Positions 15,405 through 19,494 of a DNA stretch of 64,000 nt are shown piece after piece (within the stretch, counting starts at the first letter, position 1; each line of letters begins with the position of its first letter). This stretch comes from a bacterium (GTDB lineage: Bacteria; Patescibacteriota; Minisyncoccia; JAHIHE01): the NCBI GenBank assembly GCA_030693205.1, contig JAUYBG010000005.1, forward strand, positions 9,017 through 73,016, written 5' to 3'. The notes below the pieces were generated by a model. That model was given only the letters and a program-made list of their open reading frames with translations. It was not told the DNA's origin and searched no databases. The position numbers were made by a program, and so were the translations under genes.

Positions 15405-16418
15405 ATGGTTAATATGGGCAAAGTTGTAAAAGATATAAAATCCATTAAAATTCAAGGTGCCACTAATATTGCGAAAGCATCGATTGGCGCGCTTTTGGAT
15501 TTCAGCAAAGATTTTAAGATCGGAGCTCTGCCAAAAATATCAAATGGCAAAATTTGCAATTTTTTAAGAGCCACAGAGATTAATGCCAATAAATTGGCCT
15601 GGGCCAGGCCTGACGAGCCGCTGAACCAAAATCTTCTGAATTTAATAATGGCGCAGCTCGCGCGGGATAAAAATAAAAATGTCAAGAAAAAGATTGCTAA
15701 TTTTCAAAAGTCGTGCCTGGAAACGCTCGATTTGATTCAAAAAAATGAGGCACGGATAACCGCTAATGGAATAAGTTTGGTCAAAAAAATCTATAAAAAA
15801 AAGAAGAAACCGGTTTTGGTTTTTACTCACTGCAATTCTTCGTCGGTGTTTAAGATACTGATCGGCGCGCGCAAGGAAAAAATACGGTTTAAGGTCTATA
15901 ATTCTGAAACCCGGCCAAGATTTCAAGGGAGGATCATGGCAAAAAATCTTGTTAAAAAAGGGATTGACGTGACGATGATGACTGACAGTGCGGCGCCGTT
16001 CGTGATCTCCAAAAATGATCCGGACAAGATCAATATTGACTTGGTGATCATCGGAGCGGACGTGGTCGGTATGGACGGTTCAGTACTGAATAAGATCGGC
16101 AGCTATTCTTTATCTCTCGCGGCTAAAAGCGCCGGTGTGCCTTTTTATGTGGCTGCCAGCCTTTTGAAAGCTAGGAAGGATATAGACTCTTACAGGGAAA
16201 TAGAAATTGAAAAAAGAGATCCAACTGAACTTTGGCCATCCTTCGCCAAGGCTACGGATGGCAAGCAAAAAGGAATTAAAGCGATCAATTACGCTTTTGA
16301 TACCGTGCCGCCGGAATACACCAAGAAATTAATTACGGAATTCGGGATTTTAAAGCCGGGGAAGGTCAAAAAAGCGGCGATGAAGAACTATAAGGAGATT
16401 TTTAAAAATAAACATTAA
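15405..16418 (+). CDS. eIF-2B alpha/beta/delta-family isomerase, probably ribose-1,5-bisphosphate isomerase (e2b2) of the AMP salvage pathway
   Basis: Family core LVIIGADVVGMDGSVLNKIGSYSLSLAAKSAGVPFYVAAS. Sits directly upstream of a RuBisCO fragment and near the AMP phosphorylase gene. Confidence 0.7.
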   Translation: MVNMGKVVKDIKSIKIQGATNIAKASIGALLDFSKDFKIGALPKISNGKICNFLRATEINANKLAWARPDEPLNQNLLNLIMAQLARDKNKNVKKKIANFQKSCLETLDLIQKNEARITANGISLVKKIYKKKKKPVLVFTHCNSSSVFKILIGARKEKIRFKVYNSETRPRFQGRIMAKNLVKKGIDVTMMTDSAAPFVISKNDPDKINIDLVIIGADVVGMDGSVLNKIGSYSLSLAAKSAGVPFYVAASLLKARKDIDSYREIEIEKRDPTELWPSFAKATDGKQKGIKAINYAFDTVPPEYTKKLITEFGILKPGKVKKAAMKNYKEIFKNKH

Positions 16419-16436
16419 ATTTCTCAAATAATTTTT

Positions 16437-16841
16437 ATGTCTAAATTATTCTATCTGTGTCTTGGCGCGGAAATCGATAAAACCAAGCATATTATTGCGA
16501 CCTTTAGAATTGAGTCGAGTTTGCCGCTTGAAGAAGCCGCCGGTGAAATTGCGGCGGAATCATCGATTGGCACTTGGACCAAGGTAGGAACTTTAAGCGA
16601 AGAAACTTTTGATCGCTTAGCGGCAAAAGTTTTTGATATTAAAAAGATTATTGGCGATTGTAGCGCTGATATTAGCGAGCTATTCTGGTATTTTTCCAAA
16701 AAAGGAAAGCCGCCGATCAACAGGGGGATCGTGAAAATTGCTTACCCTTTGGATTTATTCGAATTTGGCAATATTCCGCAATTGCTCTCATCGGTAGCGG
16801 GAAATATTTTCGGAATGAAAAAAACAAATTATCAGGCTTAG
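16437..16841 (+). pseudogene. RuBisCO large-subunit (form II/III-like) N-terminal fragment, truncated after about 134 aa
   Basis: IIATFRIESSLPLEEAAGEIAAESSIGTWT ... [32 protein letters not shown] aligns to the archaeal type III RuBisCO N-domain (AAESSTGTWTT ... IAYP...AGNIFGMK). The stop follows immediately and the catalytic TIM-barrel C-domain is absent. An A7 tract (16818-16824) lies at the truncation point; a -1/+2 frame reads ...KLSGLEDACFV (compare RuBisCO GLRLEDLYFP) for a few residues only. Confidence 0.75.
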
Positions 16842-16867
16842 AGGATGCGTGTTTCGTAAATTTTATT

Positions 16868-17047
16868 ATGTCCACCGAACAACAAAAAATAAGATTGGCG
16901 AAAATCGCTTTTGAAAGATTTTTACAAAAAATCATTCTTTTGCTTGGTGAAGAAAAACAATTATTTGAACGGATTATGGGGAAAATCGAGCAAAGAAAAA
17001 TAAATGAATGCCGGGGAAAAATTTGCGAGATCTACAAAAATAAATAA
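16868..17047 (+). CDS. Small hypothetical ORF (59 aa) occupying the position where the RuBisCO C-domain would be
   Basis: ATG at 16868 to TAA at 17045-17047; MSTEQQKIRLAKIAFERFLQKIILLLGEEKQLFERIMGKIEQRKINECRGKICEIYKNK. No homology recognised; may be non-coding debris. Confidence 0.2.
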   Translation: MSTEQQKIRLAKIAFERFLQKIILLLGEEKQLFERIMGKIEQRKINECRGKICEIYKNK

Positions 17048-17064
17048 TTGATAATTTTAAAAAT

Positions 17065-17952
17065 ATGAGCGATGAAAAAGAAATAAAAAAACCAATAGAT
17101 CCGGAAAAAGAAAAAGCTGGCGAGATTAGAGGTGAAGCGCCGGAAAAAGAGCCAAAAACCTTAGAAGAGGAAATTAAGAGAGACGCGGTTGAAATAGAAA
17201 ACGCGAAAGCGGCTATTACAGAACAACAAGAAAAAGATGAGAAAACTTTGGCGATCAACGATGCGGACGAGTCAAATAAGGAAGAATTTAATAATGGGAA
17301 AAAAGTGATCGGTGAAAAAGTAAAAGCGGCGGAAGGCGAGTATGGGGAAGAAGTTAACAAAATACGGGGCGATGTTGCTAATAAAATAATTTATAATGAT
17401 AATAATATGGAAAATAAAGAAGGAGCAAGCCAAAATTTATCAAAAGAAGAAATAGGGGTAAAAGTGACAAAAATCAATGAACAATTAGATAGTGCGAGAT
17501 TAAGCCCTAGACAAATCACTGAATTAAAAAAAGAGAGAGAAGTATTGTTAAATATGCTTCCAGAGTATCAGGGAGATTGGGGAAAAGGACCGGGAGCGGA
17601 GAATGAGATTACCGATCTTGATGATAATAAAACAATAAAATCGACAGATAGAGAAAGTAAAACTAAAGAAGAACCGAAGGAATTTAAACAAACAACCTTG
17701 GATAAGATTGAGAAATTAATGAGAGACCCTAGCTCTGAACTTTTTATAATCAATAAAGCTGTAAATTTTGAAGAGGAAAAGATACCAAAGCTTGAATTTG
17801 AGCTTGCTGACACGGAGTCGTCGAAAAATAACATACAAAAGGAAGAAAGAATTAAATTCACAAAAGCTAACATTAGAGAACATAAAAAAATATTGGAAAA
17901 TTTAAAAATCAAGGTTAAAGAAATATTAAATAAGCTTGAAACGGAGGATTAA
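17065..17952 (+). CDS. Lys/Glu-rich coiled-coil hypothetical protein
   Basis: Highly charged low-complexity sequence (MSDEKEIKKPIDPEKEKAGEIRGE...), no TM, no catalytic motif. Confidence 0.4.
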   Translation: MSDEKEIKKPIDPEKEKAGEIRGEAPEKEPKTLEEEIKRDAVEIENAKAAITEQQEKDEKTLAINDADESNKEEFNNGKKVIGEKVKAAEGEYGEEVNKIRGDVANKIIYNDNNMENKEGASQNLSKEEIGVKVTKINEQLDSARLSPRQITELKKEREVLLNMLPEYQGDWGKGPGAENEITDLDDNKTIKSTDRESKTKEEPKEFKQTTLDKIEKLMRDPSSELFIINKAVNFEEEKIPKLEFELADTESSKNNIQKEERIKFTKANIREHKKILENLKIKVKEILNKLETED

Positions 17953-17994
17953 GCCGAATATTTATTAATAAAATAAAAATTAGAAATTTTAACT

Positions 17995-19494
17995 ATGCCA
18001 TATTTTAAAGCTAGAAAATTAGATTTTGAGTCAGGGCATCGTCCGGAGGTGGTATTGCGGGAAGAAGAGGCGCGGCGTTATGGGATCAGAAAAGCCGATA
18101 TTTTGAAAATAGTTTGGAAAAATAAAAGTTTTTTCGCCGCGGTTAATTATACTAATTCAAAAGTCGAGGAAGGAGAGATCGGGTTTTTCCGGGAAATTTG
18201 GCAGGATAGCAAGGGCAAAGCGATGAATAGCGCGGGGATAGTGGAAGTTTCTTTGATCAAAAGGCCGGATTCGATCAAAGCGATAAAGAAAAAATTATTA
18301 GGTTCCCCATTGAACTATAAAGAAATAAAATCCATTATCAAAGATATTAGTGACGGGCTTTTGGGCGACATTGAAACGACCTATTTCGTGGCTTCAAGCT
18401 TTCGGGGTAATTTTTCCGATACGGAATTATATTATCTCACCAAAGCGATGGTTGAAACAGGGGATCGGATGAAGTTTAAAGGAATAGTTGTCGACAAGCA
18501 TTCGGTAGGCGGACTTCCGGGGAATCGAGTGACGCCGATTTTAGTTGCCATTATGGCCAGCTTGGGTTTTACTATTCCTAAAACTTCTTCGCGGGCGGTT
18601 ACTTCCCCTGCCGGCACGGCGGACACGGTTGAAGTTTTTATGCCGGTATGCCTCGAAACGTGTGATATTAAAAGAGTGGTTGAAAAAACGGGAGGATGTT
18701 TGGTGTGGGGCGGCGCGCTTCGAATCGCTCCGGCTGACGATAAGATCATAAAAGTTTCTTATCCGCTGGTGATGGAGCCTTATAATAAAATGATCGTTTC
18801 AATTATGGCTAAAAAAGTCGCCATGGGCATAAAATATCTGATTATCGATATGCCGATTGGAAGAAATACCAAAATAAAAGACAAAAAAGCCGCTGATATG
18901 ATCGAAAGAAAAATGCAGTATATTGCGGGCAAGTTTGGCATAAAATTGAAAGTTATGGTTTCTCGGGTAATTGATCCTTCCGGCCGCGGGATTGGCCCGG
19001 CTCTTGAAGCGAGGGATATACTGAGAGTTTGGCAGCAAAAAAAGGATCGGCCGATGGATCTAGAAAAGAAAGCGTTGAAAATAACTTCCGCTTTATTGGC
19101 TTTAACCGGAAAATTCAGCGAAGTTGAAGCGCAGAAAGCCGCTCGAGAAAATCTTCGGTCTTTGAAAGCTTGGGATAAAGCAAAAGAGATAATCAAGGCT
19201 CAAGGCGGGAATCCTAATATCAATTCCGAGAAAATTAAATTAGGCGCGTATCGGCACAAAGTTAAAGCCGTGAAAAATGGGCGGATCGCTATGTATGACA
19301 ATAAAGCGATCATTGAATTTTGCCGGATTTTGGGAGCGCCGTCGATCAAGCAAGCTGGCATATATTTGGATAAAGTGATCGGCAATAAGTTTAAAAAAGG
19401 CGAAACGCTTTTTACGTTGTTTGCCGATAGTCCGGATCGTCTTGATTTGGCCAAAGCGGCTTTAAAAAAAGGAAATATTTTGAAGATAGTTTAG
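17995..19494 (+). CDS. AMP phosphorylase (archaeal-type DeoA; thymidine phosphorylase family with N-terminal extension)
   Basis: DKHSVGGLPGNRVTPILVAIMASLGFTIPKTSSRAVTSPAGTADTVEVF...VEKTGGCLVWGGALRIAPADDKIIKV aligns closely with Thermococcus AMP phosphorylase; the N-terminal roughly 90-aa extension is present. Confidence 0.85.
   Translation: MPYFKARKLDFESGHRPEVVLREEEARRYGIRKADILKIVWKNKSFFAAVNYTNSKVEEGEIGFFREIWQDSKGKAMNSAGIVEVSLIKRPDSIKAIKKKLLGSPLNYKEIKSIIKDISDGLLGDIETTYFVASSFRGNFSDTELYYLTKAMVETGDRMKFKGIVVDKHSVGGLPGNRVTPILVAIMASLGFTIPKTSSRAVTSPAGTADTVEVFMPVCLETCDIKRVVEKTGGCLVWGGALRIAPADDKIIKVSYPLVMEPYNKMIVSIMAKKVAMGIKYLIIDMPIGRNTKIKDKKAADMIERKMQYIAGKFGIKLKVMVSRVIDPSGRGIGPALEARDILRVWQQKKDRPMDLEKKALKITSALLALTGKFSEVEAQKAARENLRSLKAWDKAKEIIKAQGGNPNINSEKIKLGAYRHKVKAVKNGRIAMYDNKAIIEFCRILGAPSIKQAGIYLDKVIGNKFKKGETLFTLFADSPDRLDLAKAALKKGNILKIV

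What the first reader, a model, noticed from the sequence alone, without database searches (positions are those of the whole stretch)
15405..19494. CPR/archaeal AMP-salvage (RuBisCO) locus in which RuBisCO is reduced to a 134-aa N-terminal stub
The locus has e2b2-type R15P isomerase (15405-16418), then an ORF (16437-16841) that aligns residue-by-residue with the N-terminal domain of type II/III RuBisCO (AAESSIGTWT ... [28 protein letters not shown]). That ORF stops right after the GNIFGMK motif, so the whole catalytic TIM-barrel is missing. Downstream come a 59-codon orphan ORF, a Lys/Glu-rich 295-aa protein, and only then the archaeal-type AMP phosphorylase (17995-19494). In other CPR and DPANN genomes the three enzymes form a working AMP to R15P to RuBP to 2x 3-PGA shunt. 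Here the first two steps appear intact but the carboxylase is gone. Either the pathway is decaying in this lineage, RuBP is used or removed by something else, or the KE-rich gene records an insertion event that destroyed rbcL.
Basis: partly seen in the sequence, partly recalled or inferred. Interest (0 to 1): 0.75.

Follow-up and report, generated by a model that had tools for sequence, protein, structure and literature searches.

The report
Recently deleted RuBisCO gene remnant
A tiny-genome (CPR/Patescibacteria) bacterium has lost the catalytic two-thirds of its RuBisCO gene through one clean 1,080-bp deletion, leaving a 134-codon remnant between two intact partner enzymes; this is ordinary, recent gene loss, not a new system.

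Summary
Window 15405-19494 holds an intact R15P isomerase (e2b2), a 134-aa ORF that is only the RuBisCO N-terminal domain, two unannotated ORFs and an intact AMP phosphorylase. No RuBisCO barrel occurs anywhere in the 64 kb.

The cause is now resolved. A close relative (L005; 86-90% nt identity) carries an intact 433-aa form III-c rbcL that is 93% identical to the stub. The window aligns to L005 on both sides of a gap of exactly 1,080 bp, from rbcL codon ~130 to ~168 nt past the rbcL stop. The two alignments share a 13-nt A-rich stretch (16820-16832).

The "orphan" 59-aa ORF and the K/E-rich gene are conserved neighbours downstream of intact rbcL in relatives, so no insertion destroyed rbcL.

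The stub shows no relaxed selection (dN/dS 0.12 against 0.11 for e2b2) and is a singleton, so the deletion is recent. An independent Logan assembly gives the identical junction.

Split or truncated rbcL genes recur in other CPR/DPANN contigs, and genomes with deoA and e2b2 but no RuBisCO are already discussed in the literature.

Still open: a divergent second rbcL elsewhere in the genome, and read-level heterogeneity. Low interest.

The parts
15405..16418 (+). Ribose-1,5-bisphosphate isomerase (e2b2), intact
   Evidence: PF01008 at 2.5e-58. Best solved relatives are R15P isomerases 5yfj and 3a11, and the THCNS Cys and GAD Asp motifs are kept. 92% aa identity to the L005 orthologue, dN/dS 0.11. 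Below the NCBIfam equivalog cutoffs for both TIGR00511 and the MtnA models.
16437..16841 (+). Remnant of form III-c rbcL: codons 1 to ~130 (N-terminal domain) plus five codons and a stop read from former spacer DNA
   Evidence: PF02788 at 2.2e-29 with no PF00016. 93% aa identity to residues 1-129 of the intact 433-aa RbcL P0047/L005. Singleton protein cluster, MDP3056965.1.
16820..16832 (.). Deletion junction: a 13-nt A-rich stretch that aligns to both flanks of the 1,080 bp missing relative to L005
   Evidence: blastn gives L005 4642-6120 = window 15333-16832 and L005 7188-7885 = window 16820-17509; the offsets differ by 1,080. Three-line junction display. Identical in the independent Logan assembly L004.
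16868..17047 (+). Conserved small protein (59 aa) that normally follows intact rbcL; function unknown
   Evidence: 90% identical to the L005 61-aa ORF downstream of intact rbcL. 14 invariant columns across five genomes. 11 hits in 1.84 billion representatives, ten of them proteins of 59-108 aa. No Pfam family. dN/dS 0.12.
17065..17952 (+). K/E-rich 295-aa ORF, positional counterpart of a variable-length ORF between rbcL and AMP phosphorylase in relatives; function unknown
   Evidence: 80% aa identity to the partial L005 orthologue. The C-terminal part from Met115 (17407) aligns with the 168-aa protein of L001, and a conserved DNA island 17376-17428 sits on that start. Counterparts of 100-517 aa in L009-L011.
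17995..19494 (+). AMP phosphorylase (archaeal type, deoA), intact
   Evidence: PRK04350 at 501 bits (above cutoff) and TIGR03327 at 487 bits. T. kodakarensis AMP phosphorylase 4ga5 at E=1.6e-98 over residues 5-489. 91% identical to the L001 orthologue, dN/dS 0.08.

Best explanation
The 134-aa ORF is the leftover 5' end of a form III-c RuBisCO gene. In the recent ancestry of this organism a single deletion of about 1,080 bp removed rbcL codons ~131-433, the stop codon and about 168 nt of the downstream spacer. The break lies in a short A-rich stretch (GAAAAA..TA.AT) that is present at both ends of the missing DNA in the intact relative. This points to replication slippage or illegitimate recombination between short direct repeats. 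Translation now runs five codons into former spacer DNA and stops. The remnant keeps its start codon and the 18-nt spacer after e2b2, so it is probably still made. It cannot carboxylate, because the whole TIM-barrel that carries the catalytic residues is missing. The flanking genes (e2b2, small ORF, K/E-rich ORF, AMP phosphorylase) are unaltered. The locus can therefore still convert AMP to R15P and RuBP, but not to 3-PGA unless another RuBisCO exists elsewhere. Shown: the homology end points, the size and position of the deletion, the absence of a barrel in 64 kb, conserved synteny, and intact neighbours. Inferred: the slippage mechanism, expression of the stub, recency, and the metabolic consequence.
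For: Intact orthologue: P0047 in L005 is a 433-aa RbcL with both Pfam domains and is 93% identical to stub codons 1-129, including the lineage-specific insert IIGDCSADISELFWYFSKKGKP. Collinear DNA on both sides, offsets differing by exactly 1,080 nt, and a 13-nt overlap at the junction. The sequence just after the junction is homologous to the spacer upstream of the small ORF in L005. The missing 1,080 bp has no match elsewhere in the window. Gene order e2b2 - rbcL - small ORF - variable ORF - AMP phosphorylase holds in L005, L009 and L010; L001/L002 lack the small ORF and L011 has no e2b2 directly upstream; rbcL is intact in all of them. Recency: stub dN/dS 0.12 against e2b2 0.11 and small ORF 0.12. 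Polarised changes are 4 against 1, compared with 8 against 7 for e2b2, which is not significant. The stub is a one-member cluster on one contig. An independent Logan assembly of SRR13727537 is 701/701 identical across the junction. The overlap at the junction is 13 nt (imperfect), shorter than the k-mers I would expect short-read assemblers to use (my assumption; no assembler settings were available), so a repeat collapse is unlikely.
Against: No read-level data, so a minority or chimeric junction cannot be excluded. The ancestor is inferred from a relative that differs at about 10% of nucleotides, so the exact break point and the true length of the microhomology are uncertain. Low dN/dS on the stub is equally compatible with continued selection on it. 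The rest of the genome was not available, so 'pathway broken' is not proven.
Confidence: 0.85

Rival explanations
1. The deletion is real, but the pathway is not broken, because the genome carries a second, divergent RuBisCO (for example III-like or II/III) outside the window.
For: Only 64 kb of a 124-kb contig, itself only part of the genome, could be examined. RuBisCO forms are laterally transferred among CPR bacteria (PMC6389311). e2b2 and AMP phosphorylase show no relaxation.
Against: No barrel in the window. In a 5.8-billion-protein collection that includes this MAG's NCBI proteins and the Logan assembly of the same run, no barrel other than P0047's own is more than 86% identical to the orthologous barrel. 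The '[bacterium]' RuBisCOs that carry accessions are from other submission series. This test cannot detect a divergent copy.
Confidence: 0.15
2. The junction is an artefact or a minority variant (assembly error, amplification chimera or sub-population allele), and the dominant genome has an intact rbcL.
For: Template-switch chimeras and strain variants also join at microhomologies. Both assemblies probably derive from the same reads.
Against: Two different assemblies are identical across the junction. The overlap at the junction is far shorter than the k-mers I would expect an assembler to use (my assumption).
Confidence: 0.07
3. The 134-aa N-domain protein is a maintained, functional stand-alone protein (for example regulatory, or binding another partner) and not a dead remnant.
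For: The ORF is intact and keeps its start context. dN/dS is 0.12. It covers most of the N-domain fold (profile positions 10-107 of 120) and keeps the motifs AAESSIGTWT and GNIFGMK.
Against: It is a singleton, and its nearest relative is a full-length RbcL at 93% identity. Other short N-domain ORFs that were examined are halves of split genes or unrelated truncations. From established RuBisCO structure, the N-domain only completes an active site formed by the partner subunit's barrel.
Confidence: 0.05
4. One reading: insertion of the K/E-rich gene (with the 59-codon ORF) disrupted rbcL.
For: The purine-rich, low-GC composition of 16800-17800 stands out, and neither ORF has a Pfam hit.
Against: Both genes sit downstream of intact rbcL in L005, L009, L010 and L011, and the K/E-rich one also in L001 and L002. 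The window has 1,080 bp less than L005 and nothing extra. The composition is explained by Lys/Glu codons.
Confidence: 0.01

Closest known systems
Form III-c RuBisCO / AMP-pathway loci of CPR bacteria (Jaffe et al. 2019, PMC6389311)
   Same: Same gene set and close linkage of e2b2, rbcL and deoA. The intact orthologues belong to the clade that source records name Form III-c.
   Different: Here rbcL lacks its entire catalytic domain. The published loci have full-length or e2b2-fused RuBisCO.
Archaeal AMP metabolism / pentose bisphosphate pathway of Thermococcus kodakarensis (Sato et al. 2007, as cited in PMC6389311)
   Same: AMP phosphorylase and R15P isomerase are homologous to the solved archaeal enzymes 4ga5, 3a11 and 5yfj.
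   Different: The third enzyme is missing, so the product would be RuBP and not 3-PGA.
CPR organisms with deoA and e2b2 but no RuBisCO ('missing puzzle piece' state, PMC6389311)
   Same: The same end state: two vertically inherited enzymes without a carboxylase.
   Different: That paper treats this state as preceding lateral gain of RuBisCO. Here it is reached by loss, with the scar still visible.
Other broken rbcL genes in CPR/DPANN data
   Same: Examples: L006 (N 107 aa + C 270 aa), L008 (226 + 186 aa), L007 (169-aa remnant in a 648-kb archaeal record), and a 44-aa rbcL pseudogene fragment reported in Nanobdellota.
   Different: L006 and L008 are splits that keep both halves. The window's allele is a clean deletion of the barrel with a mapped junction.

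Membership tests
RuBisCO large subunit, form III (III-c clade) | N-terminal domain (PF02788) | tested here: met
   102.5 bits, E=2.2e-29, profile positions 10-107 of 120.
RuBisCO large subunit, form III (III-c clade) | C-terminal catalytic TIM-barrel (PF00016), which carries the catalytic residues including the carbamylated Lys | tested here: not met
   No PF00016 hit in the ORF. No barrel by tblastn in 64 kb. The orthologous 1,080 bp is deleted.
RuBisCO large subunit, form III (III-c clade) | Phylogenetic affinity to the III-c clade | tested here: met
   93% identity to P0047. P0047's barrel is 86% identical to P0053, which nr names 'RuBisCO long chain, Form III-c'. This rests on sequence identity; no tree was built.
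AMP (pentose bisphosphate) pathway, three-enzyme module | AMP phosphorylase | tested here: met
   PRK04350 at 501 bits, above its 434 cutoff; TIGR03327 at 487 bits, below its 535 cutoff. 4ga5 at E=1.6e-98, including the N-terminal extension.
AMP (pentose bisphosphate) pathway, three-enzyme module | Ribose-1,5-bisphosphate isomerase (as opposed to MtnA or an eIF2B subunit) | tested here: inconclusive
   Best solved relatives are R15P isomerases, and the Cys and Asp motifs are kept. All NCBIfam equivalog scores are below cutoff, and MtnA-type models score similarly. The assignment also rests on linkage to rbcL and deoA in relatives.
AMP (pentose bisphosphate) pathway, three-enzyme module | Catalytically competent RuBisCO | tested here: not met
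   Only the N-domain remnant is present in the window. The rest of the genome could not be tested.
Gene remnant (pseudogene by deletion) | Truncated relative to intact orthologues at the syntenic position | tested here: met
Gene remnant (pseudogene by deletion) | Relaxed selection on the remnant | tested here: inconclusive
   dN/dS is 0.12, the same as neighbouring genes. There is a 4:1 excess of derived changes, which is not significant. This fits a very recent event.
Gene remnant (pseudogene by deletion) | Not conserved as a short form in other genomes | tested here: met
   Singleton cluster. Other short hits are at most 49% identical, and the three examined are splits or an unrelated truncation.

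The most novel reading that the evidence does not exclude
AMP phosphorylase and R15P isomerase have a RuBisCO-independent role in these bacteria, for example nucleobase release with R15P or RuBP as the end product or as an exchanged metabolite. That would explain why they are vertically inherited and remain under strong purifying selection while RuBisCO comes and goes. This allele would then be a natural knockout showing that the carboxylase is dispensable. A weaker version: the stand-alone N-domain is retained for a new role.
Probability: 0.12. Interest if true: 0.55.

Novelty: new member of a known kind. Interest (0 to 1): 0.2.

Why it matters
This is a dated, mechanistically clear snapshot of RuBisCO loss in a CPR bacterium: a clean deletion, a mapped junction and intact neighbours. 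The patchy distribution of RuBisCO in CPR and DPANN genomes has been attributed mainly to lateral transfer (PMC6389311). This allele, together with the other broken rbcL genes seen here, shows that ongoing loss contributes as well. It also warns annotators: a domain-level hit to RuBisCO_large_N next to deoA and e2b2 does not mean that the AMP pathway is complete. Beyond that it is ordinary genome erosion in a single MAG.

Tried and rejected
(1) Frameshift idea. Shifting frame at the A-run after GMKK reads KLSGLEDACFV, which resembles RuBisCO's LRLEDLEFP and runs into the 59-aa ORF. A frame-corrected protein extended the PF02788 match only from profile position 107 to 115 and gained 1.1 bits. 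I rejected this when L005 showed that this DNA is homologous to the spacer upstream of the small ORF.

(2) Decayed barrel in 16842-17994. tblastn at E<=10 found nothing there.

(3) The first homologue search with the stub returned only short proteins at 49% identity or less and missed the 93%-identical full-length P0047. P0047 came from searching with the relative's full RbcL.

(4) Scans with the AMP phosphorylase as query found one related lineage in genome contigs (L001), and the same lineage in metagenome contigs (L002) plus a 1.4-kb fragment (L003) that was not examined. The window's own MAG is not in genome contigs, so the whole genome could not be scanned for a second rbcL.

(5) Protein accessions were used to look for a RuBisCO from the same MAG. 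Only two candidates carried accessions, and both were from other submission series.

(6) Promoter and terminator consensus scans gave nothing above chance inside the locus or in the deleted spacer of L005.

(7) A literature search for run SRR13727537 found no paper.
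Full report
OBSERVATION.
- The 337-aa ORF (15405-16418) is an IF-2B/e2b2-family protein (PF01008, 2.5e-58).
- The 134-aa ORF (16437-16841) matches only the RuBisCO large-chain N-terminal domain (PF02788, 2.2e-29, profile positions 10-107 of 120) and has no catalytic-domain match.
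- The 59-aa and 295-aa ORFs have no Pfam family.
- The 499-aa ORF (17995-19494) has the three nucleoside-phosphorylase domains.

NCBIfam ranks type III RuBisCO (TIGR03326) first for the stub. For the 499-aa protein it gives PRK04350 at 501 bits (above cutoff) and AMP_phos TIGR03327 at 487 bits (just below its 535 cutoff). The stub is on record as NCBI MDP3056965.1, 'hypothetical protein Q8N37_00385 [bacterium]', on a 124-kb MAG contig. It is a one-member cluster.

IS THE BARREL ANYWHERE IN THE WINDOW? No. A relative found through the AMP phosphorylase is L001, from the Patescibacteria MAG KR13_N2.mb.46 (AMP phosphorylase 91% identical). It carries a full 442-aa RbcL with both Pfam domains. tblastn of that protein against the whole 64 kb returns only the stub (residues 5-140, 68% identity, E=6e-45). 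Nothing better than E=2.9 appears for the rest.

WHAT HAPPENED. Searching with the relative's RbcL recovered a dense clade of full-length proteins, about 405-455 aa for the unfused ones, some of which source records name 'Form III-c'. One of them, P0047 (433 aa), shares with the stub even the lineage-specific insert IIGDCSADISELFWYFSKKGKP.

Its contig is L005 (Logan SRR22387754, 7.9 kb). The gene order there is DNA-alkylation repair, a 116-aa ORF, e2b2, intact rbcL (5725-7026), a 61-aa ORF (7237-7422), and then the start of a K/E-rich ORF.

blastn of L005 against the window gives two collinear blocks: L005 4642-6120 = window 15333-16832 (89.8%) and L005 7188-7885 = window 16820-17509 (85.8%). 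The offsets differ by exactly 1,080 nt, and the blocks overlap by 13 nt in the window.

The three-line display shows the junction:
- Left flank in L005: GGAATGAAAAAAATAGATAAT
- Right flank in L005: TTTAGAAAAATAAATTATCAGG
- Window: GGAATGAAAAAAACAAATTATCAGG

The window therefore lacks rbcL codons ~131-433, the stop codon and about 168 nt of spacer. The break lies inside a short A-rich stretch that is present at both ends. That is the signature expected of slippage or illegitimate recombination between short direct repeats. The mechanism is an inference, and the exact end points are uncertain because L005 is a roughly 10%-diverged relative and not the ancestor. The stub's last five codons (TNYQA) and its stop come from former spacer DNA.

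THE TWO 'ODD' GENES ARE NOT INSERTIONS. The 59-aa ORF is 90% identical to the ORF that follows intact rbcL in L005. It has homologues in the same position in L009, L010 and L011, with 14 invariant columns. An exhaustive search of 1.84 billion representatives found 11 hits, ten of them proteins of 59-108 aa, so this is a small, narrow but real family. It has no Pfam match.

The K/E-rich ORF is 80% identical to the partial L005 orthologue. Its part from Met115 onward aligns with the 168-aa protein of L001 and L002, and the only conserved DNA island in that stretch (17376-17428) sits on that start. Positional counterparts of 100-517 aa occur in L009-L011.

The clade-wide order is e2b2 - (variable cargo) - rbcL - small ORF - variable ORF - AMP phosphorylase - methyltransferase - Dus - Obg. 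L001 and L002 lack the small ORF, and L011 has no e2b2 directly upstream of rbcL. The purine skew and low GC of 16800-17800 simply reflect Lys and Glu codons.

HOW RECENT, AND IS IT REAL? Against L005, the stub has dN/dS 0.12 (dN 0.037, dS 0.31). This is indistinguishable from e2b2 (0.11) and the small ORF (0.12). Had the stub drifted neutrally along the whole window branch, a value near 0.5 would be expected.

Polarising with L001 and L002 gives 4 window-derived against 1 L005-derived amino-acid changes. The e2b2 control gives 8 against 7, so the excess is not significant. Together with the singleton status, this indicates a recent deletion. Continued selection on the stub cannot be formally excluded.

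An independent Logan assembly of run SRR13727537 (L004, 24 kb) has the same gene order and is 701/701 identical across the junction. A 13-nt imperfect repeat is shorter than the k-mers I would expect short-read assemblers to use (my assumption), so a repeat collapse is unlikely. Read-level support could not be checked.

ARE THE PARTNER ENZYMES INTACT? The best solved relatives of e2b2 are ribose-1,5-bisphosphate isomerases (5yfj, 3a11). The THCNS cysteine is kept, as is the GAD aspartate, the position that reads GAN in chain 5yft. NCBIfam cannot separate it from MtnA, because all models score below cutoff.

The AMP phosphorylase aligns with the T. kodakarensis enzyme 4ga5 over residues 5-489 (E=1.6e-98). 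It is 91% identical to the L001 protein, with dN/dS 0.08. So the first two steps (AMP to R15P to RuBP) appear functional and the third is gone from this locus.

SECOND COPY? This could not be settled. No barrel lies in the window. In a 5.8-billion-protein collection that holds this MAG's proteins and the Logan assembly of the same run, no barrel other than P0047's own exceeds 86% identity to P0047's barrel. An intact allele of the same gene would be expected at about 90% or more, so none has been assembled. A divergent second RuBisCO elsewhere in the genome remains possible; I estimate about 15%.

COMPARISON WITH WHAT IS KNOWN. Jaffe et al. 2019 (PMC6389311) defined form III-c and showed its tight linkage, and sometimes fusion, with e2b2 and deoA. 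They found that deoA and e2b2 are largely vertically inherited while RuBisCO is sparse and laterally transferred. [quoted passage not shown] The end state seen here is therefore already familiar. What is added is a visible scar showing that the same state is also reached by loss.

Broken rbcL genes are not rare:
- L006 and L008 carry rbcL split into two adjacent ORFs.
- L007 (CP070794.1, a 648-kb archaeal record that is probably a closed chromosome) has a 169-aa remnant.
- A 2026 preprint mentions a 44-aa rbcL pseudogene fragment in Nanobdellota.

VERDICT. Its cause is a recent, clean 1,080-bp deletion. The insertion hypothesis is refuted. My own frameshift hypothesis is also refuted. This is ordinary gene loss in a reduced genome: a new example of a known kind and of low general interest. 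It has modest value as a natural rbcL knockout in a CPR AMP-salvage locus.

Noticed in passing
L001 6335-6584 and 7961-8206 (same in L002 ~1733-1982 / 3359-3604): In the sister lineage, a ~250-nt direct duplication (93-95% identical) of the e2b2-rbcL junction plus the first ~154 nt of rbcL flanks a 1.4-kb insert. The insert carries two genes: a 194-aa protein with weak HTH/RepL-like hits and a 202-aa DUF6036 nucleotidyltransferase. rbcL stays intact downstream.
   Followed up: partly
L009 3732-5942; L010 5556-5981; L001 6693-7889: The e2b2-rbcL junction carries different cargo in different relatives: a 736-aa unannotated protein, a 141-aa NUDIX hydrolase, or the two-gene insert. In the window and in L005 the two genes are only 18 nt apart. 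This looks like an insertion hot spot.
   Followed up: no
window 16868-17047; L005 7237-7422; L009 7359-7550; L010 7347-7535; L011 5162-5446: A conserved ~60-aa protein is encoded directly downstream of form III-c rbcL in this clade. It has 14 invariant columns, no Pfam family, and only 11 hits in 1.84 billion representatives. Its function is unknown, but its fixed position next to rbcL may be worth a look.
   Followed up: partly
window 17065-17952; L009 7565-8485; L011 5518-7071: The variable ORF between the small ORF and the AMP phosphorylase ranges from 100 to 517 aa. In the alignment, the L009 and L011 versions contain a CPKC...C..CGN zinc-ribbon-like motif that the window's K/E-rich version lacks.
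   Followed up: no
L007 5001-5508 (CP070794.1, GCA_020343435.1): A 169-aa rbcL remnant (N-domain plus the start of the barrel) lies inside a 648-kb archaeal record that is probably a closed chromosome. Opposite-strand genes follow directly, and a phage-integrase-family gene lies 2.4 kb away. This looks like an independent truncation, possibly linked to a mobile element.
   Followed up: no
L006 426-1665; L008 5001-6245: rbcL is split into two adjacent ORFs (107 + 270 aa; 226 + 186 aa) on JGI metagenome contigs. These could be frameshifts, stop mutations or sequencing errors.
   Followed up: no
L001 8053-9381 versus L002 3451-4779: The two RbcLs are otherwise near-identical and come from what appears to be the same species, but they differ in a concentrated patch around residues 128-190 and at the extreme C-terminus. 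This suggests mosaic recombination within rbcL.
   Followed up: no
window 15346-15374: A strong terminator-like hairpin (13-bp stem followed by a T-run) lies between the conserved 116-aa ORF and e2b2. It suggests that e2b2 starts its own transcription unit. No such site was found between e2b2 and the AMP phosphorylase (consensus scan only).
   Followed up: no
window 14986-15336: A 116-aa ORF with no credible Pfam family lies immediately upstream of e2b2 and is conserved in L001, L002 and L005 (78-91% aa identity, dN/dS 0.06-0.17).
   Followed up: no
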